From the NCBI GenBank assembly GCA_038858525.1, contig JAWCFL010000004.1, forward strand, positions 84,451 to 101,785: 17,335 bases of DNA, read 5' to 3'. Below, piece by piece: positions 8,431 through 17,322 of the stretch. This DNA comes from Candidatus Jordarchaeales archaeon. Its GTDB lineage: Archaea; Asgardarchaeota; Jordiarchaeia; Jordiarchaeales; Freyrarchaeaceae. Numbering within the stretch: the first letter of the stretch is position 1; each line of letters begins with the position of its first letter. Made by a program: the position numbers and the translations under genes. The notes under the pieces are model-generated. The model did no database searches. It saw only the letters and a list, made by a program, of their open reading frames with translations, and was not told the origin of the DNA.

Positions 8431-8732
8431 CCTTAATCTGAAAAGTTAATATCATGGTTCCTTATTGAAATAAGGGGTGTTCGATCAAATTTTTGTTTTT
8501 TCTATGCGACGTGTTGCTTGAAGGGGGAGCGTTTCATGCATCCAACTCTCTTTCGAAAGGTGTTGCTTTTAACTATTCTTTTCCTTTTTAGTGGCTTTTT
8601 ATCTCATTATGCCATATTGACATAACCTCTATTGCTGTTTGCTTGTGTAATACTTAAATAATATTGAAACCAATACAATATGTTGAGTGTTTTGCTAGGA
8701 AGGGTGTTTGCTTAGCTTAAGAGGTGACATTC

Positions 8733-9530
8733 ATGTCCGTTTCCATACCTAAATATATGCTTATGGTTAGAGTGGAGCCCGGTGATAAGTCTCCGATCCC
8801 CTTCAGTCAGGATGCTATCAATAGTGATTCACTTGTTGTTCTCTTAGACGAGGTGGATGATCGCCTCTACTTGTGGATGGGTAAAAACAGAAGTTTGGTT
8901 GACAAGAGAGCCGCTATGAGGGTTGCGCAGTCTATTATGAAGGGTGGCTTCTCTTATGGGAAGCTACAAGTGGGGCGAAACTTGAAGGAGCTGGTTGAAA
9001 TAGATGAGTCTAGACTTTCTGAGCCTGATGTTAAAGGAAGCTTTGACGCTCTCAACGCCGTTTTTAAGAGGAACTACACGGCCAAAGATAAGATGCTCGT
9101 CGAAGTGGCCGTTGAGGCACCTTCTTCTGCTGTCGAGGCGCCAGCTCCACCAGTTAAGGAAGTAGAGGAGGCTGTTGGAGCCCCGCCGGCTCAGCCTGCT
9201 AGGGAAGCTCCCTCCGCCGCAGTAAAGCCTCGCCCTGAAGCTGTAATGTCTGTTGAAGCGAAGGCTACTGAGGTAGAACCTGAACTCGTGGGGCGAGCTA
9301 AGTTGGGGTTGCTGTTCACTCTTCTTGCAGAAGAGTTCACTGAACTCCTTGTCAGCTGCAAAGTTGAGGAAGGGGTGCCCGTCTTTGAGTTCGAGTCCCC
9401 GGAGGGGCTCATAGCCAAAGTCTCCATTGACGGAAAGGATCTCGTCATCTCTTACGGTTCAAAGTTCGCTGAAAAACGGGACAAAGTTATTTCTAAGCTA
9501 AAGGAGATAATAGGGAAAATTCTGGGTTAA
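8733..9530 (+). CDS. Gelsolin-domain protein: N-terminal gelsolin/villin-like repeat, Pro/Ala/Glu linker and unknown C-terminal domain, 265 aa
   Basis: IPFSQDAINSDSLVVLLDEVDDRLYLWMGKNRSLVDKRAAMRVAQSI matches the gelsolin repeat consensus (LNSxDxFILD..IYxWxG..S...K..A...A..I). ATG at 8733 follows GAGGTGA. Confidence 0.72.
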   Translation: MSVSIPKYMLMVRVEPGDKSPIPFSQDAINSDSLVVLLDEVDDRLYLWMGKNRSLVDKRAAMRVAQSIMKGGFSYGKLQVGRNLKELVEIDESRLSEPDVKGSFDALNAVFKRNYTAKDKMLVEVAVEAPSSAVEAPAPPVKEVEEAVGAPPAQPAREAPSAAVKPRPEAVMSVEAKATEVEPELVGRAKLGLLFTLLAEEFTELLVSCKVEEGVPVFEFESPEGLIAKVSIDGKDLVISYGSKFAEKRDKVISKLKEIIGKILG

Positions 9531-11709: not shown

Positions 11710-11766
11710 GAAGCTTGTATCTTAAAAGTTCCTTGAAGTTTTGCTTTCACTGTGGAGGGGCTTGTG

Positions 11767-12060
11767 GTGAGCGGGAGGTTCAAAATAGTCATTTTTAAGT
11801 CTGAGCGTACTCCCAAGTACTCCCAAGTAGTCAAGACAGTGCGTTCCTCTCTCGAAAAACTCGGTTTGGACCTAGAGGTTGAGGAAGTTGACGTGTCTAA
11901 GAACCCTGAAATGGCTGTTAGGAGCGGAGTAATCTCAACGCCAACAATAGATATAGTTGGTTTGAACTGGCGATTCATAGGGCTACCTACAGAGGACGAA
12001 TTAATAGCTGTTTTAGAGTCATTGAAAGAGGAGGGAGAAAAGCGTGGCAAAGAGGAGTAG
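11767..12060 (+). CDS. Cysteine-less thioredoxin-fold, KaiB-like protein, about 97 aa (start 11767 or 11764)
   Basis: Pattern TP..., VDVSKNPEMA, STPTI, RFIG resembles both KaiB (IDVLKNPQLA, ATPTL, RIIG) and archaeal thioredoxin-like proteins. The protein has no Cys. GGAGGGG precedes the GTG. Confidence 0.7.
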   Translation: MSGRFKIVIFKSERTPKYSQVVKTVRSSLEKLGLDLEVEEVDVSKNPEMAVRSGVISTPTIDIVGLNWRFIGLPTEDELIAVLESLKEEGEKRGKEE

Positions 12061-12838
12061 GTCATCTTCCGGCTTCATGGCGGAACTCAAGGAAAGGATA
12101 ATCTCTGAGGCACGCGTAATAGAGTCACCCGGCGAGAGGACGCCGACGGGAATTCGAGGGTTCGACGAGCTAGTTAGAGGAGGCCTTTTCAAAGGTGCAA
12201 CTTATCTGCTGTCGGGGGTATCGGGGGCTGGCAAGTCGATCTTTTGCCTCGAGTTCCTTTATCATGGCGCAGCAGAGTTCGATGAGCCAGGACTGTACGT
12301 TTCGCTCGAAGAGCACTTGGATAGCATACTTAGGAACGCTAGGAACTTCAAGTGGAACTTGAAAAGCCTCATAGACCGGCAGATGCTAGTGCTGCTGGAT
12401 CTCAGCGTAGTGGCTGTAGGCGAAAAGGCTCTGTCTCTCAACACTGACGTGTTCGCATTGGACGGCCTCTACGCAACAATGGAAAGTGTGATTAAAGAGG
12501 GCGGGATCAAGAGGGTGGTCCTCGACCCGATCTCCGTTCTCTTCTTGCAGTATGGGAACGTAGGCGTAGTTAGGCGTGAACTCAACGTCATTTCGGGCAT
12601 GCTGAAAAGGCACGGGTGCACTTCGATCTTTGTCACAGAAACCGAGTACGGGAAGCCAAGCATAACACGGTTCGGCGTGGAGGAATTCATGGCAGACGGC
12701 GTCTTCCTACTTTACTGGGAACCTGAGGGCGATAAAAGAAGCAGGTACATTGAAATATACAAAATGAGGGGTTCCCCACATTACGAGGGAAAGAAGCGCT
12801 TCTCAATAACCGACAGCGGCATAGTAATCCTCTACTAG
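12044..12838 (+). CDS. Single-domain KaiC-like (RecA-superfamily) ATPase; start 12044 or 12077
   Basis: TGIRGFDELVRGG, Walker A GVSGAGKS, catalytic SLEE, Walker B RVVLDPIS, VEEFMADGV and arginine finger KMRGS. Confidence 0.92.
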   Translation: MAKRSRSSSGFMAELKERIISEARVIESPGERTPTGIRGFDELVRGGLFKGATYLLSGVSGAGKSIFCLEFLYHGAAEFDEPGLYVSLEEHLDSILRNARNFKWNLKSLIDRQMLVLLDLSVVAVGEKALSLNTDVFALDGLYATMESVIKEGGIKRVVLDPISVLFLQYGNVGVVRRELNVISGMLKRHGCTSIFVTETEYGKPSITRFGVEEFMADGVFLLYWEPEGDKRSRYIEIYKMRGSPHYEGKKRFSITDSGIVILY

Positions 12839-12976: not shown

Positions 12977-14116
12977 ATGATAAGGTTGAGGCTTCCGCTC
13001 TTCGACCGTCAGCTGGGTGGGATTCCTGAGTCCTCGAAAAACCTTTTCATGGTTTTCCCCGGCATTGATCCCTCAATACTGGGATTACATGTGGTTAGGG
13101 CAGGCTTAGAAGAAGGATACAAAGTCGTTTACTTTGTGAATAATAAGCCTCCCATAAGTGTGAGGAGGCAGGCTAAGAAGTCTCATCTAAGCTTCGAAGC
13201 ATATGAGCAAAAAGGGCAGTTCATCATGGTAGACGCATACTCCATGTTTAGTGGGGCGGAAAGCCATGAAAAAATCGTAGTTAACCCTTACGATGTTAAC
13301 GCAACGAAGAAGACTTTAGCTGACCTATCTTCAAAGAACACGCTCTTAGTGCTCGACTCGCTGAATAGCCTCTTGGAGTCGTGGGGCGGCAAAGCGGAAC
13401 CATTAACTGACTTTTTGAAGGCTGCTGATGCATCGACCCTAATTGCCCTATTTTCCTCTTGGCTCTACATGGATGAATCCGTTAAGGGAATGGAGAGCCT
13501 CTTCGACGGGGTATTTGAAGTTAAACCCGACCCTCTCCTCATAGTAGAAAACCGGTTTAGAGTAAAAAGGGTTTCCTGGGCTACTGGGGCAGGAGAGCTG
13601 TCCTTCCTCGTGAAGGCAGTTTCACCAAGCGAGCTTAGGGTATACCTTCCAAAAGTGGTTGTCCTCGGGCCGTACAATGCGGGTAAAACCACTCTTGTTC
13701 ATGCTTTAGCTGAAGACGCAGTTAGCGTTGAACGGATGGGCACTACGGTCGCACTCGACCACGGCTCATTGGATTATAAGGGGTTCTACATGGAGCTCTT
13801 CGGCACCCCGGGGCAACCTCAGTTCGAACCAATCCTTGACATGATGATGGATGGAGCTGTCGGATTCATTCTCGTCGTTGATAGCGCCGACGCATCGACC
13901 TTCAATAGAGCTAAAGAGCTTTTCGATAAGTGCGAGGGAAAGGCCCCGATAGTGGTGGCTGCAAACAAGCAGGACTTAAAGTTAGCCATTTCTCCCAGCG
14001 ATCTCAGAACCCGCCTTAATATTCCTTCATCCGTCCCCGTGGTTGGTTGTAGCGCCAAGAACAGGGTTAACGTATTCCTCATACTCGACATTCTCCTAAA
14101 CCTGATCTCCATGTAG
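12977..14116 (+). CDS. Fusion of an inactivated KaiC/RecA-like domain and an MglA-type small GTPase, 379 aa
   Basis: ATG at 12977 follows GGTGA. The N-domain has LPLFDRQLGG and LVLDSLNSL but FPGIDPS in place of Walker A. The C-domain (from about 13651) has GPYNAGKTT, TTVALD, FGTPGQ, NKQD and CSAK. Confidence 0.85.
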   Translation: MIRLRLPLFDRQLGGIPESSKNLFMVFPGIDPSILGLHVVRAGLEEGYKVVYFVNNKPPISVRRQAKKSHLSFEAYEQKGQFIMVDAYSMFSGAESHEKIVVNPYDVNATKKTLADLSSKNTLLVLDSLNSLLESWGGKAEPLTDFLKAADASTLIALFSSWLYMDESVKGMESLFDGVFEVKPDPLLIVENRFRVKRVSWATGAGELSFLVKAVSPSELRVYLPKVVVLGPYNAGKTTLVHALAEDAVSVERMGTTVALDHGSLDYKGFYMELFGTPGQPQFEPILDMMMDGAVGFILVVDSADASTFNRAKELFDKCEGKAPIVVAANKQDLKLAISPSDLRTRLNIPSSVPVVGCSAKNRVNVFLILDILLNLISM

Positions 14117-14129
14117 GGAGGTGTGCTGT

Positions 14130-14492
14130 TTGGAGTTTAGGGGTAAAATTAAAAAACTCTTAATGAAACTTCAGGCATTAGAGGGGGTTGAGGGCTGCCT
14201 CGTAGCAATGAGGAACGGAAGCGTTCTAGAGGCGCTCATGCCCCACGACTTAGATATAGGTAGGCTTGCCGCTATGGCTGCGTCAATGCTTGGAGCCGCG
14301 GAAGTTGCCGCTGAAACAGTCAGGAGAGGGGTAGCCCGCCACTTAACGCTTGAAACTGAAGGCGTAACGTTAATAATTACTGGCGCTGGGTCCAAAGCCT
14401 TCCTGTTAATACTCGCCGCGAAGACCACCACCCCCCACCTGCTTAAGGACCTTGAGGAAGCATGTAAAGCGATCACAGAGTTTTTGCCATAA
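14130..14492 (+). CDS. Roadblock/LC7 (MglB-like) protein, 120 aa
   Basis: EGVEGCLVAMRNG, LAAMAASMLGAA and LTLETEG match the roadblock pattern; TTG at 14130 follows GGAGGTG; directly downstream of the MglA-like domain. Confidence 0.88.
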   Translation: MEFRGKIKKLLMKLQALEGVEGCLVAMRNGSVLEALMPHDLDIGRLAAMAASMLGAAEVAAETVRRGVARHLTLETEGVTLIITGAGSKAFLLILAAKTTTPHLLKDLEEACKAITEFLP

Positions 14493-14517
14493 AAACCAGC
14501 TTGAAGGGGAGAGCTTC

Positions 14518-15267
14518 ATGGCGAAGACAGACCTATTAAAGACTGGAATAGAACTGCTCGACCGCCTCCTTGGAGGAGGCATCAATCCGGGCTCCCTATG
14601 CATAGTGGTCGGTGAACCACTAGGTGGAAAGGAACTAATTGCCTTGGAGTTTTTCTGCGAAGGACTAAGACTTGGAGAAGGAGGCATATACGTCACAATG
14701 GTGAATTTCGCCGAGGAAGTGGAATCTGCAATCGCCAGCCGAGGATTAGACCTTTCAGCATACCGCGGCGCCAATCCGAAGTACCGGATAATAGATCTCT
14801 ACCGTCCGACAGTAGATTTCTCCGTTGAGGACAGCGACACTGTGACCTATGTCCCAGCGCCAACAGACCTTGCGGCTCTAAGCTCGAAGATTGTTGATGC
14901 AGCCATGAAGCTCTCACATCTCAGCCGCGTACGCATAATCATAGACTCCCTCTCATCCATCATATCGTTTGCTTCACCCAAGTCCGCTTTAAGGTTCATG
15001 TCCTTCATGAAGGCAAAAGTTCAGCTGTCAAGCAACGTTATCCTAGCAACTCTCGAGCAGAAACTGGCTAACGACGTCGAGACCGAATCAATCCTCCACC
15101 TAGCGAACACACTCATCTTTCTAGAAAAAAATAGGCTTGAAATACGCCGAAGAGGGAAAACACCAGTAGAAGTAACCGTCAAGTTCTCAAATGAAAAAAT
15201 AATAGAAGCCAACCCTCCTAAGAAAACGCAGAAAAACCAGAACTCCAAAAAACCATCGGAACACTAA
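14518..15267 (+). CDS. Degenerate KaiC/RAD55-like RecA-superfamily protein, 249 aa
   Basis: TGIELLDRLLGGG; Walker A altered to GEPLGGKE; catalytic EE replaced (TMVN); IIIDSLSS; Lys/Gln-rich C-terminal tail. Confidence 0.85.
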   Translation: MAKTDLLKTGIELLDRLLGGGINPGSLCIVVGEPLGGKELIALEFFCEGLRLGEGGIYVTMVNFAEEVESAIASRGLDLSAYRGANPKYRIIDLYRPTVDFSVEDSDTVTYVPAPTDLAALSSKIVDAAMKLSHLSRVRIIIDSLSSIISFASPKSALRFMSFMKAKVQLSSNVILATLEQKLANDVETESILHLANTLIFLEKNRLEIRRRGKTPVEVTVKFSNEKIIEANPPKKTQKNQNSKKPSEH

Positions 15268-15642: not shown

Positions 15643-16155
15643 ATGGGGCTCAAAGGGAGAATAGCCTTCCACTTTATGGCTGACAAGATCAACCTTGAAG
15701 CATACATATCCCTTCTAGTGTCGGCTCTAGATTACATTCTCGAAGTGGAGAAAGGTGACGTAAACAAGGCATCCCAAGTCATTTGGAACATGGGCCGGAA
15801 AATAGGCTCTAGAATGCTTGCAAAGTACGCTGAAAGAGTAGGTAAGCATGCTATTGAGTTTTACGAGTTCTCAAAAACATACAACCTTGCGTACTACTTT
15901 TACTTAGGAAAAAGCTACGACAAAATATACGTTGTACCCGAAGAGAAAAAGATAGTCTTTGAGGATTACGATTGCCCCGTTTGTAGGGGAGTGCTGCTAC
16001 CCGACGAGTTAAAGGGAGTGCGGCTCTGCAACATAATTGACGGAATATACACTGAAGTATGCACAGTCAGAGGGTTCGACGCTGAATCGTGGGAAACCAA
16101 ATGTAAAGCATCTGGAGACGAATGTTGCAGACATGAATTACGCCTAAAGGTATGA
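15643..16155 (+). CDS. V4R-domain protein (Bet3/TRAPP-related fold), 170 aa
   Basis: DCPVC, LCNIIDGIY and ETKCKASGDECCRHEL V4R signature; helix NMGRKIGSRML; GGAGG upstream of the ATG. Confidence 0.85.
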   Translation: MGLKGRIAFHFMADKINLEAYISLLVSALDYILEVEKGDVNKASQVIWNMGRKIGSRMLAKYAERVGKHAIEFYEFSKTYNLAYYFYLGKSYDKIYVVPEEKKIVFEDYDCPVCRGVLLPDELKGVRLCNIIDGIYTEVCTVRGFDAESWETKCKASGDECCRHELRLKV

Positions 16156-16579: not shown

Positions 16580-16791
16580 CAAAGTACACCCCTCCAACTA
16601 AGGGATATTGACGTGAAAGGTTAAGAAGATAAATAAAACAGAGAAAATATTCCTGAGTTTACTTCCATTTTTAAATAGTCATTAGGGGAGGAAGTGTTTT
16701 AGGTGGTGATCGGAAGAGTGAATGTTTAAATTTTAAAGTTCCGTCATGTTTCTTGCTGATGGTTCGTCTCCGGGCGAAGGAGGAGAGCGCA

Positions 16792-17322
16792 TTGAACACA
16801 TCAAAGTACAACTTTAAGGTTCTAGTTGTTGGTGACGGGGGGGTGGGGAAGACCAGCCTAACGCTCAGATTTACCACGGGCTCCTTCAAGGAAAACTACA
16901 TGCCGACTTTGGGAGTTAACTTTTACTCTAAAACAGTAGATGTGGAAGGCGTCTTAGTCAAGCTTACGGTATGGGATACAGGGGGGCAGGAACGCTTCAA
17001 ACCATTACTTCCAAACTACTTTAAGGGGGGTCAAGGCTCCCTCGTCGTCTTCGATGTAACAGACTCTGAATCCTTCAAAAGCGTTGAAGGATGGGTGAAA
17101 CAGGTGAAGCATTACTGTGGTGACGTCCCCATTGTCATTGTCGGAAACAAGATTGACCTCTCATCAGAAAGAAAGATAAGCCGCGAGGAGGCTGCGAGGC
17201 TCGCGGACAGGCTTAGCGCACCATACTTCGAGTCATCAGCGAAGGAGAACATAATGGTGAAGGATGTCTTCACATTTCTTGCCTCCCTCATACTAAGGAA
17301 CTCACTTAAAAGAAACGACTAA
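16792..17322 (+). CDS. Rab-like small GTPase, about 176 aa
   Basis: GDGGVGKTS, PTLGVNF, WDTGGQERF, GNKIDL and ESSAK motifs; TTG at 16792 follows AGGAGG; no C-terminal Cys. Confidence 0.95.
   Translation: MNTSKYNFKVLVVGDGGVGKTSLTLRFTTGSFKENYMPTLGVNFYSKTVDVEGVLVKLTVWDTGGQERFKPLLPNYFKGGQGSLVVFDVTDSESFKSVEGWVKQVKHYCGDVPIVIVGNKIDLSSERKISREEAARLADRLSAPYFESSAKENIMVKDVFTFLASLILRNSLKRND

What the first reader, a model, noticed from the sequence alone, without database searches (positions are those of the whole stretch)
11767..12838. KaiB-like protein coupled to a KaiC CI-like ATPase in an archaeon
Seen: a Cys-free thioredoxin-fold protein with TP…KT…LE…VDVSKNPEMA…STPTI…RFIG abuts a single-domain KaiC-like ATPase. 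From recalled sequences, KaiB has TPNS…KTL…IDVLKNPQLA…ATPTL…RIIG. The ATPase has VEEFMADGV, like the CI half of KaiC (VEEFVSDNV) rather than the phosphorylatable ST of CII, and it has an insertion before Walker B where CI carries the KaiB-binding B-loop. Established: fold-switched KaiB is thioredoxin-like and binds the CI B-loop; archaea have many KaiC-like ATPases but recognised KaiB is rare. Inference: a minimal or ancestral KaiB-CI switch, perhaps with KaiB locked in the thioredoxin fold since it lacks the P-x-P stretch preceding RxIG in KaiB.
Basis: partly seen in the sequence, partly recalled or inferred. Interest (0 to 1): 0.78.

Follow-up and report, generated by a model that had tools for sequence, protein, structure and literature searches.

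The report
Cysteine-free thioredoxin partner of Asgard KaiC
In a hot-spring Asgard archaeon, a small thioredoxin-shaped protein that has lost its redox cysteines is encoded overlapping a one-domain KaiC clock-type ATPase and is predicted to dock where KaiB docks; related Asgard archaea keep an intact thioredoxin at that position, which may show how KaiB-like regulators arise from thioredoxins.

Summary
A 97-aa, cysteine-free thioredoxin-fold gene (11767-12060) overlaps by 17 nt a 264-aa single-domain KaiC (12044-12838). That KaiC scores 182 bits against the CI half of cyanobacterial KaiC and 54 bits against CII, and it carries a loop at the B-loop position.

By sequence the small protein is a derivative of the MJ0307-type archaeal thioredoxin. 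It fails the Pfam and NCBIfam KaiB cut-offs, lacks the KaiB C-terminal signature and lies outside the canonical KaiB clade.

Its behaviour is nevertheless KaiB-like. All 11 sampled genomes of its order have it directly upstream of KaiC. It is under strong purifying selection (dN/dS 0.03-0.07). Every cysteine-free relative whose flanks could be read is KaiC-linked. A controlled complex prediction (0.69 against 0.07 for the best control) puts its former active-site groove on the KaiC B-loop, centred on F137, which aligns with F122.

The unexpected result concerns other Asgard lineages. The orthologous slot there holds an intact CxxC thioredoxin, and one lineage holds both forms. The pair therefore looks like a thioredoxin-KaiC module caught becoming KaiB-like. 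It sits in a conserved five-gene operon with a pseudo-KaiC::GTPase fusion, a Roadblock protein and a second pseudo-KaiC. I class it as a new variant of a known kind.

The parts
11767..12060 (+). Cysteine-free thioredoxin-fold protein (97 aa; alternative starts at 11764 and 11752), the KaiB-like partner gene
   Evidence: ORF and sequence. PF13192 Thioredoxin_3 scores 27.6 bits, above its cut-off; PF07689 KaiB scores 19.9 bits, below its cut-off. AF2 gives pLDDT 85 with beta-alpha-beta-alpha-beta-beta-alpha topology. dN/dS is 0.03-0.07.
11806..11820 (+). Codons R14-T15-P16-K17-Y18, the conserved motif that replaces the thioredoxin CxxC active site
   Evidence: In alignment A3 these columns hold C-[AG]-F-C in CxxC orthologues and R-T-P-x-Y in all Jordarchaeia sequences. 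Residues 14-17 lie in the predicted KaiC interface.
11926..11943 (+). G54-V-I-S-T-P59, the loop equivalent to the thioredoxin cis-Pro loop and the core of the predicted interface
   Evidence: P59 is invariant in A3. The lowest-error predicted contacts pair residues 55-58 with KaiC 137-142.
12044..12838 (+). Single-domain, CI-like KaiC ATPase (264 aa); its start overlaps the upstream gene by 17 nt
   Evidence: PF06745 scores 218.8 bits. CI scores 182 bits and CII 54 bits against solved KaiCs. Catalytic motifs are intact. In the tree it forms a clade with Hod-like single-domain KaiCs (100/98), alongside CI domains and outside the CII clade.
12404..12478 (+). B-loop-equivalent segment (S121-T145, SVVAVGEKALSLNTDVFALDGLYAT), including F137, which aligns with KaiC F122
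   Evidence: Alignment to KaiC CI. Predicted interface residues 127-145. F137 is invariant in A4. F122 and D123 are needed for KaiB and SasA binding (10.1101/2020.06.17.158394).
12977..14116 (+). Pseudo-KaiC N-domain (Walker A lost) fused to an Arf/Ras/MglA-like small GTPase; same operon (the ORF is open from 12854)
   Evidence: Pfam hits: KaiC at residues 49-173, Arf/Ras at 267-413. Conserved downstream of the pair in relatives.
14121..14492 (+). Roadblock/LC7 (MglB-like) protein; same operon
   Evidence: PF03259 scores 44.1 bits. Conserved in relatives.
14452..15267 (+). Second, degenerate KaiC-like protein (Walker A reads GEPLGGKE); same operon
   Evidence: PF06745 scores 69.4 bits, with DUF7504 also hit. 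A degenerate KaiC also follows the thioredoxin-KaiC pair in other Asgard families.

Best explanation
The small gene encodes a redox-dead thioredoxin, derived from the MJ0307-type archaeal family, that has become a dedicated protein-binding subunit of the adjacent single-domain, CI-like KaiC ATPase.

Proposed mechanism:
- It keeps a stable thioredoxin fold, the same topology as fold-switched KaiB and the SasA N-domain.
- It uses the old substrate groove to clamp the KaiC B-loop equivalent (E127-T145, centred on F137). The groove is formed by the ex-active-site loop R14-T15-P16-K17, the cis-Pro-type loop V55-P59 and strand beta4.
- Binding probably depends on the nucleotide state of the hexamer. 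It would modulate KaiC ATPase activity or KaiC's availability to the other operon products.
- Those products are a pseudo-KaiC::small-GTPase fusion, a Roadblock/MglB-like protein and a second pseudo-KaiC. Together they would form a KaiC-hub-to-GTPase switch.

Shown here: the gene structure, loss of cysteines, the fold prediction, strict synteny, purifying selection and the CI-likeness of the KaiC. Also shown: the same slot in other Asgard lineages holds a CxxC thioredoxin.

Inferred: physical binding and its location (prediction only), nucleotide dependence, and signalling to the GTPase module.
For: 1. Coupling. The genes overlap by 17 nt here and by 4 nt in family f2. All 10 other sampled genomes of the order carry the cysteine-free gene directly upstream of KaiC.
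2. Specificity. The window genome has about five KaiC-family loci but only one such partner.
3. Selection. dN/dS is 0.03-0.07. A new invariant motif, R-T-P-x-Y, replaces CxxC.
4. Association from the partner side. Cysteine-free relatives found by the exhaustive search sit next to KaiC wherever the flanks could be read. P0010 and P0018 overlap two-domain KaiCs. P0008 lies beside a kaiB-kaiC pair, P0014 lies directly downstream of a KaiC, and P0007 sits in the same five-gene cluster. P0009's own contig is too short to show a neighbour, but its near-copy P0143 is KaiC-linked.
5. Association from the KaiC side. In Atabeyarchaeia, a Hod-like lineage and family f31, the KaiC relatives have a thioredoxin directly upstream. 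It carries CGFC or CAFC, and the Hod-like lineage has a cysteine-free and a CAFC copy in tandem. Other thioredoxin paralogues in the same genomes are unlinked.
6. Complex prediction. The score is 0.69 and the best of 3 controls is 0.07. That mark was reached by 58 of 80 solved complexes and 2 of 110 mismatched pairs. The runs agree in at least 95% of contacts, and the partner's pLDDT is at least 83. My own alignments were used and ADP rode along, so these counts hold only roughly. The interface is KaiC 127-145 against partner residues 10-17, 43-59 and 66-75.
7. Hot spot. F137 aligns with KaiC F122. F122 and D123 are required for KaiB and SasA binding.
8. Fold. pLDDT is 85. VIA gives Z 12.9 to thioredoxins, 11.3 to fold-switched KaiB 5jwo_B (rmsd 2.0 over 84 residues) and 11.3 to the SasA N-domain 1t4y.
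Against: - No experiment exists; binding is only predicted. KaiB-CI and SasA-CI complexes are solved (5JWO, 5JWQ, 6X61, 8FWJ), and this KaiC closely resembles CI (174-182 bits). The pass may therefore reflect memory of those structures rather than this pair's own signal.
- The small protein fails every curated KaiB threshold.
- Its weak KaiB similarity is shared by ordinary MJ0307-type thioredoxins (controls).
- D123, important in cyanobacterial KaiC, is A138 here. An Asp appears two residues later instead.
- No conserved Cys lies in the KaiC loop of the CxxC lineages. What the redox-active orthologues do to KaiC is therefore unclear, and the ancestral function may not have been B-loop binding.
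- Synteny alone cannot say which operon product is the true partner.
Confidence: 0.6

Rival explanations
1. It is a bona fide, divergent KaiB orthologue. It would switch between a ground-state fold and the thioredoxin-like fold and time a KaiBC-type hourglass on a one-domain KaiC.
For: The family profile hits KaiB chains over their full length at E 1e-10, ahead of all thioredoxins except two archaeal ones. The AU test does not reject Jordarchaeia plus KaiB as one clade (p 0.34). The protein has no cysteines, sits at the kaiB-kaiC gene order, and has a predicted B-loop interface.
Against: It scores below the Pfam and NCBIfam KaiB cut-offs. Only the N-terminal half matches the KaiB model. The C-terminal half keeps the thioredoxin pattern TPTIDIVG..WRFIG-LPT and lacks PPP..RRIIGDLS. 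The canonical KaiB clade (100/99) excludes it. AF2 gives only the thioredoxin topology at pLDDT 85. The KaiC lacks a CII domain and its phosphosites, so there is no known timer to read.
Confidence: 0.1
2. It is a redox-inactive thioredoxin-fold subunit of the operon whose real partner or role is something other than the KaiC B-loop. Examples are binding the pseudo-KaiC::GTPase fusion, the Roadblock protein or the second pseudo-KaiC, or acting as an assembly chaperone.
For: The whole five-gene cluster is conserved across the order. Synteny therefore does not single out KaiC. Cysteine-free thioredoxin folds serve many binding roles. The complex prediction could be memory of solved KaiB-CI structures (caveat).
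Against: The thioredoxin gene always directly precedes, and often overlaps, the active KaiC. This holds in lineages where the GTPase fusion and Roadblock are absent, such as the Hod-like L016 and family f31, which have thioredoxin-KaiC-pseudoKaiC only. Cysteine-free relatives also pair with two-domain KaiCs that have no GTPase neighbours. The degenerate KaiC that follows the pair in those lineages remains a possible partner.
Confidence: 0.22
3. It is a decaying thioredoxin gene, a pseudo-enzyme with no function, retained by chance next to KaiC.
For: The catalytic cysteines are lost. It scores far below the MJ0307 equivalog cut-off (36.8 against 92.75 bits).
Against: dN/dS is 0.03-0.07. The frame is intact in 11 genomes of two families. 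A new invariant motif occupies the old active site. The fold is predicted with confidence.
Confidence: 0.02

Closest known systems
KaiB (PF07689) bound in its fold-switched form to the KaiC CI B-loop (PDB 5JWO, 5JWQ, 5N8Y, 8FWJ)
   Same: A small, cysteine-free thioredoxin-topology protein encoded directly upstream of kaiC. The predicted docking site is the loop homologous to the B-loop, centred on the Phe that aligns with F122. Structural match to 5jwo_B is Z 11.3, rmsd 2.0 over 84 residues, 25% identity.
   Different: It falls below the KaiB family cut-offs and has no PPP/RRIIGDLS C-terminal signature. It lies outside the canonical KaiB clade and shows no sign of a ground-state fold. Its partner is a one-domain KaiC without CII or phosphosites. 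Schmelling et al. [quoted passage not shown]
[quoted passage not shown]
   Same: A non-switching thioredoxin-like fold that binds the same KaiC B-loop. VIA gives Z 11.3.
   Different: The SasA domain is fused to a histidine kinase and is cyanobacterial. This protein stands alone and shows no specific sequence relationship to SasA (15% identity).
MJ0307 / MTH807 small archaeal thioredoxins (PDB 1FO5, 1NHO; PF13192, TIGR00411)
   Same: These are the closest solved sequences (E 2e-7 for the single sequence, 2.8e-15 for the profile). They share the length, the beta-alpha-beta-alpha-beta-beta-alpha fold, the cis-Pro-type TPT loop and the C-terminal xFxG-xPT pattern.
   Different: All cysteines are lost: CxxC is replaced by R-T-P-x-Y. 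There is a two-residue insertion before beta4. It scores far below the equivalog cut-off. It is dedicated to KaiC by synteny.
KaiC-linked CxxC thioredoxins of other Asgard lineages
   Same: They occupy the same slot, directly upstream of a single-domain KaiC, usually followed by a degenerate KaiC. They belong to the same MJ0307-type family.
   Different: They keep CAFC or CGFC and lack the insertion and the D62 and R14 features. A clade of the Jordarchaeia proteins plus all these CxxC forms is marginally rejected (AU p 0.0245, with groups named after seeing the tree).
Archaeal KaiC-like ATPase signalling hubs (Makarova, Galperin and Koonin 2017, mBio; cited in PMC5847659)
   Same: An active KaiC-like ATPase sits with inactivated KaiC paralogues, a Roadblock protein and small-GTPase neighbours.
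   Different: I could not read that paper. I therefore cannot say whether a thioredoxin or KaiB-like partner was already listed there.

Membership tests
KaiB (Pfam PF07689) | Score at or above the Pfam gathering cut-off (27 bits) | tested here: not met
   19.9 bits, E 6e-4, matching only profile positions 6-55 of 82. The genome-wide PF07689 search finds nothing in the window genome at E<=1e-3.
KaiB (NCBIfam TIGR02654 / NF006798 equivalogs) | Score at or above the equivalog cut-off | tested here: not met
   13.9 bits against 145.3, and 13.4 bits against 110.
KaiB | C-terminal signature (L-P-P-P-x-R-R-I-I-G-D-L-S) in the region that fold-switches | tested here: not met
   In alignment A3 canonical Asgard KaiBs read LPPPIRRIIGDLS. 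The window protein reads VG--LNWRFIG-LPT, as thioredoxins do.
KaiB | No redox CxxC; gene adjacent to kaiC | tested here: met
   Zero Cys. The gene overlaps kaiC-like by 17 nt, and the pair is conserved in 11 of 11 genomes of the order.
KaiB | Binds the B-loop of the KaiC CI domain | tested here: inconclusive
   The prediction supports this: score 0.69, best control 0.07. The mark was reached by 58 of 80 solved and 2 of 110 mismatched pairs. The interface covers KaiC 127-145. It is not a measurement, and similar complexes are solved.
KaiB | Metamorphic: ground-state tetramer fold interconverting with a thioredoxin-like fold | not testable with these tools
   AF2 with the family alignment gives only the thioredoxin topology. 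A single prediction cannot exclude a second state.
KaiB | Phylogenetic placement within the KaiB clade | tested here: inconclusive
   The canonical KaiB clade (100/99) excludes it. A sister relationship is not rejected (AU p 0.34).
Thioredoxin_3 / MJ0307-type thioredoxin (PF13192, TIGR00411) | Pfam PF13192 score at or above its cut-off (24.8 bits) | tested here: met
   27.6 bits, E 2.9e-6. The best solved relatives are 1fo5 and 1nho.
Thioredoxin_3 / MJ0307-type thioredoxin | TIGR00411 equivalog cut-off (92.75 bits) | tested here: not met
   36.8 bits.
Thioredoxin_3 / MJ0307-type thioredoxin | CxxC active site | tested here: not met
   The columns that hold C-A/G-F-C in orthologues read T-P-K-Y, and the protein has no Cys.
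Thioredoxin_3 / MJ0307-type thioredoxin | Thioredoxin fold with a cis-Pro-type loop | tested here: met
   AF2 gives pLDDT 85 with beta-alpha-beta-alpha-beta-beta-alpha topology. VIA gives Z up to 12.9, rmsd 2.3 over 89 residues. P59 is invariant.
KaiC (PF06745), for the ATPase | KaiC/RecA-like domain with intact Walker A and B, the catalytic Glu pair and the Arg finger | tested here: met
   218.8 bits. Motifs: GVSGAGKS, LEE, VVLD, KMRG.
Circadian KaiC (TIGR02655 / NF006799 equivalogs) | Two tandem domains (CI and CII) with CII Ser/Thr phosphosites; score at or above the equivalog cut-off | tested here: not met
   It has a single 264-aa domain. It scores 182.5 bits against 546 and 205.6 against 408. 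It matches CI at 182 bits and CII at 54 bits.
KaiC CI domain | B-loop with the conserved Phe (F122) that KaiB and SasA bind | tested here: met
   The loop is present and 4 residues longer. F137 aligns with F122 and is invariant in A4. D123 is A138 here.

The most novel reading that the evidence does not exclude
Asgard archaea may preserve stages of the route by which KaiB-type regulators arise from thioredoxins:
- a redox-active CxxC thioredoxin encoded with a one-domain, CI-like KaiC (Atabeyarchaeia, family f31);
- duplication into a CxxC copy plus a cysteine-free copy (Hod-like lineage);
- the cysteine-free copy alone (Jordarchaeia).

Related cysteine-free forms pair with two-domain KaiCs elsewhere. 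On this reading the KaiB-CI interaction predates both KaiC domain duplication and KaiB fold switching, and it began as redox input to a KaiC ATPase. Here the module feeds a small-GTPase/Roadblock switch.
Probability: 0.2. Interest if true: 0.85.

Novelty: new variant of a known kind. Interest (0 to 1): 0.62.

Why it matters
KaiB is a well-known metamorphic protein and the night-time switch of the only fully reconstituted circadian oscillator. Where it came from is not settled. KaiC is regarded as the oldest Kai protein, with KaiB added later (10.1101/2022.11.28.518275). KaiB outside cyanobacteria has been reported only alongside full-length KaiC (PMC5520375).

This locus gives a concrete, testable system with three useful properties:
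- a stand-alone, non-canonical thioredoxin-fold partner;
- a one-domain KaiC that resembles CI and carries a B-loop;
- natural relatives in which the same partner still has its redox cysteines.

That makes two questions directly addressable at the bench. Did B-loop binding exist before fold switching and before the CI-CII duplication? Did it start as redox sensing?

The module is also wired to a pseudo-KaiC::GTPase fusion and a Roadblock protein in Asgard archaea. This links the proposed KaiC signalling hub to the small-GTPase machinery studied for eukaryogenesis.

If binding fails, the result is still a clean case of a conserved pseudo-thioredoxin of unknown role.

Tried and rejected
- Foldseek against the PDB returned only generic thioredoxins, so it could not separate thioredoxin from fold-switched KaiB. 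VIA re-alignment put thioredoxins, fsKaiB and SasA-N within about 1.5 Z of each other, which also does not discriminate.
- The phylogeny of the roughly 90-residue proteins left all deep nodes unresolved. AU tests could not reject Jordarchaeia+KaiB (p 0.34), Jordarchaeia+Hod cysteine-free (p 0.42) or all non-canonical cysteine-free forms together (p 0.31). Only Jordarchaeia plus all CxxC KaiC-linked forms was marginally rejected (p 0.0245), and those groups were named after seeing the tree. No claim about ancestry is made from these trees.
- The search for related loci on genome contigs with A3 failed because no stretch was conserved enough. The survey is therefore limited to 400 Asgard genomes plus metagenome contigs. 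I could not test whether thioredoxin-KaiC pairs occur in other archaeal phyla, for example around MJ0307 itself.
- A profile search of the 5.8-billion-protein set with A1 added only one new cluster.
- Makarova et al. 2017 (mBio) could not be read by DOI or PMC id.
- I looked for a conserved Cys in the KaiC loop of the CxxC lineages as a possible mixed-disulfide target and found none.
- I considered 'KaiB-specific similarity' as evidence and rejected it. PF07689 also gives sub-threshold hits in M. jannaschii and other control genomes.
- Interface columns change together between clades: KaiC 138/140 reads D/S against A,N/D, and partner positions 57-58, 62 and 66-67 also differ. This amounts to only two or three independent events, so I do not count it as covariation evidence.
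Full report
**What is there**

On the + strand, a small ORF (start GTG 11764 or 11767, stop at 12060) encodes a 97-98 aa protein with no cysteine. It overlaps by 17 nt a 264-aa ORF at 12044-12838. That start matches orthologues of 262-265 aa.

Three further genes follow on the same strand:
- a degenerate KaiC N-domain fused to an Arf/Ras/MglA-like GTPase (about 12977-14116);
- a Roadblock/LC7 protein (14121-14492);
- a second degenerate KaiC-like protein (14452-15267).

Upstream lie a radical-SAM gene, a GCD14/TrmI methyltransferase and a gelsolin-repeat protein. Names attached to close homologues, together with earlier notes of this scan, place the genome in Asgard Jordarchaeia (also labelled Freyarchaeota), in Candidatus Jordarchaeum.

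**The ATPase**

- Family: PF06745 KaiC scores 218.8 bits.
- CI likeness: against solved KaiCs it matches the CI half at 174-182 bits and the CII half at 54-55 bits.
- Catalytic motifs: Walker A GVSGAGKS, the Glu pair at 89-90, Walker B VVLD, VEEFMADGV and KMRG are all intact.
- B-loop: the loop at the CI B-loop position is present. It is 4 residues longer than in cyanobacterial CI and 7 longer than the CII equivalent.
- Tree: the Jordarchaeia proteins form a clade with Hod-like single-domain KaiCs (100/98). This clade sits in a polytomy with CI domains of two-domain KaiCs and lies outside the CII clade (100/100). The root is uncertain.
- Thresholds: it fails the circadian KaiC equivalog cut-offs because it has only one domain.

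**The small protein by sequence and fold**

- Pfam: Thioredoxin_3 scores 27.6 bits (cut-off 24.8). KaiB scores 19.9 bits (cut-off 27), over the N-terminal half only.
- NCBIfam: the best hit is the MJ0307-family thioredoxin at 36.8 bits (cut-off 92.75). The KaiB equivalogs give about 13-14 bits.
- Solved chains, single sequence: 1fo5 at 2e-7, 1nho at 9e-7, then KaiB at about 1e-3.
- Solved chains, profile of relatives: 1fo5 at 2.8e-15 (59 bits), then KaiB chains at 1.3e-10 (44 bits, full length), ahead of all other thioredoxins.
- Control: the Pfam KaiB model also gives sub-threshold hits in M. jannaschii and other control genomes. This weak KaiB likeness is therefore a property of MJ0307-type thioredoxins in general.
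- Fold: AF2 gives pLDDT 85 with beta-alpha-beta-alpha-beta-beta-alpha topology. VIA re-alignment scores thioredoxins at Z up to 12.9. Fold-switched KaiB 5jwo_B scores 11.3 (rmsd 2.0 over 84 residues), 8fwj_M scores 10.9, and the SasA N-domain 1t4y scores 11.3. All are effectively tied.
- Alignment A3: the CxxC columns read R-T-P-K-Y. The C-terminal half keeps the thioredoxin pattern and lacks the KaiB PPP..RRIIGDLS signature.

**It is a real, constrained gene**

dN/dS against same-genus orthologues is 0.03-0.07. R14, T15, P16 and Y18 are invariant across the order. Public records name the protein 'thioredoxin family protein' or 'hypothetical'.

**Co-occurrence, starting from the small protein**

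An exhaustive HMMER scan of 1.8 billion representatives found only 13 clusters at E<=1e-3. The cysteine-free ones, with their genomic contexts, are:
- P0007: the same five-gene cluster as the window.
- P0005: the same cluster.
- P0010 and P0018: each overlaps a two-domain KaiC of 497-498 aa. P0018 also carries an N-terminal extension.
- P0008, a tandem duplicate: lies beside a kaiB-like gene plus a 500-aa KaiC.
- P0014: lies directly downstream of a 569-aa KaiC.
- P0009: its contig is too short to show a neighbour. Its near-copy P0143 is KaiC-linked.

Among 400 Asgard genomes, all 4 of 4 and 6 of 6 genomes of the window's two families have the cysteine-free gene at E<1e-30. In every case it lies directly upstream of KaiC. 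The window genome has about five KaiC-family loci but only this one thioredoxin-like partner. A separate classical thioredoxin is encoded elsewhere.

**Co-occurrence, starting from the KaiC**

This was the unexpected result. The nearest KaiC relatives outside the order also have a gene of about 100 aa from the same thioredoxin family directly upstream.
- Atabeyarchaeia: the partner keeps CGFC and is followed by an Arf/RagA-like GTPase.
- Hod-like lineage: two tandem copies, one cysteine-free (RRSGS) and one with CAFC. KaiC and a degenerate KaiC follow.
- Family f31, a large Asgard family: a distinct orthologous group with the signature FFKSDxCAFCPRAEEV always precedes KaiC plus a degenerate KaiC. 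I saw 26 loci across many genera. Lower-scoring thioredoxin paralogues in the same genomes are unlinked.
- Family f8: a CSWC thioredoxin lies about 330 nt downstream of a KaiC-like gene.
- Canonical KaiB: hits above 50 bits on PF07689, with LPPPxRRxxGDLS-type motifs, occur in about 12 of the 400 genomes. Where the flanks could be read they lie beside KaiC, which is two-domain in most loci.

Of the 30 best thioredoxin-like loci in the phylum survey, 27 were KaiC-adjacent.

**Predicted complex**

I used the alignments A4 (KaiC) and A3 (partner), with ADP riding along.
- The score was 0.69 and the best of three controls was 0.07.
- That mark was reached by 58 of 80 solved complexes and 2 of 110 mismatched pairs. 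These counts hold only roughly here, because my own alignments were used and a ligand rode along.
- The runs agree in at least 95% of contacts, and the partner's pLDDT is at least 83.
- KaiC interface: residues 88, 118, 120, 127-145, 147-148, 166 and 170. This is the B-loop equivalent and the start of the following helix.
- Partner interface: residues 10-12 and 14-17 (the former active-site loop), 43-51, 54-59 (the cis-Pro-type loop) and 66-75.
- The lowest-error contacts pair KaiC 137-142 with partner 55-58.
- F137 aligns with KaiC F122. F122 and D123 are needed for both KaiB and SasA binding (10.1101/2020.06.17.158394). [quoted passage not shown]

Caveat: KaiB-CI and SasA-CI complexes are solved and this KaiC closely resembles CI. 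The pass may therefore be from memory. It shows likeness, not that this pair binds.

**Evolution**

The small-protein tree resolves only shallow clades. Canonical KaiB (100/99, on a long branch) excludes the window clade. AU tests do not reject a sister relationship to KaiB (p 0.34). They also do not reject a clade with the Hod cysteine-free copies (p 0.42, delta lnL 0.15) or a clade of all non-canonical cysteine-free forms (p 0.31). A clade with all CxxC KaiC-linked forms is marginally rejected (p 0.0245, named post hoc).

The Jordarchaeia, Hod cysteine-free and two-domain-linked cysteine-free forms share derived characters: Arg at position 14, Asp at 62 and RF/RI at 69-70. This hints at one non-canonical cysteine-free family, but it is not proof.

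**Conclusion**

The protein is best described as a cysteine-free derivative of a KaiC-dedicated, MJ0307-type thioredoxin that most likely works like KaiB or SasA-N by clamping the KaiC B-loop. It is not a member of the KaiB family as currently defined.

The association of a KaiB-like partner with a one-domain KaiC departs from the published pattern, in which KaiB occurs only with full-length KaiC (PMC5520375). I found no description of the CxxC-to-cysteine-free series in the same genomic slot in the papers I could search. I could not read Makarova et al. 2017. Function remains untested.

Noticed in passing
window 11810-11829: A perfect 10-nt tandem repeat (ctcccaagta twice) lies inside the codons for T15-V21, at the former active-site loop. 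The two copies are read in different frames, and orthologues have the same protein length. It is not a frameshifting duplication, but it could be a slippage-prone site.
   Followed up: no
window 15643-16155 and 16753-17322: A V4R/TRAPP(Bet3)-like gene and an Arf/Ras/Roc-like small GTPase follow the five-gene cluster. The same order (TRAPP-like, small ORF, GTPase, OB-fold SSB-like, GTPase) is kept in relatives L001-L003.
   Followed up: partly
window 8724-9530: A gelsolin-repeat protein (PF00626, 21.4 bits) with a Pro/Ala/Glu-rich linker and a C-terminal domain that has no family hit.
   Followed up: no
L017:8294-10100: In the Freyrarchaeum guaymaensis relative, the five-gene cluster is followed by a MoxR-type AAA ATPase and a VWA-domain protein, which are absent from the window.
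   Followed up: no
L010:5001-5597 (P0018) and L012:940-1551 (P0008): Two unusual architectures of the cysteine-free KaiC-linked family. One carries an N-terminal extension of about 100 aa and overlaps a two-domain KaiC. The other is a tandem duplication of two KaiB-like domains beside a kaiB-like/kaiC pair.
   Followed up: partly
L068:2590-2823, L069:2504-2734 (Asgard family f13): An MJ0307-type CxxC (CVYC) thioredoxin domain is embedded in open frames of about 680 aa. No KaiC lies within 2.5 kb.
   Followed up: no
L066, L067, L065 (Asgard family f8): A CSWC thioredoxin lies about 330 nt downstream of a KaiC-like gene on the same strand. This is a second, different thioredoxin-KaiC arrangement, and 26 of 31 genomes of this family had a thioredoxin-like match.
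   Followed up: partly
L070:2535-2774 (Asgard family f28): A cysteine-free thioredoxin-like ORF (FVSPTTSRHV in place of CxxC) has no KaiC within 2.5 kb. Loss of cysteines in this family is therefore not always KaiC-linked.
   Followed up: no
window 12044-12130 (KaiC residues 1-29): The Jordarchaeia KaiC orthologues share a basic N-terminal extension (..ELKERI / ELRRRTK..) of about 30-40 residues. It is absent from other Asgard single-domain KaiCs and from CI domains. Its role is unknown.
   Followed up: no
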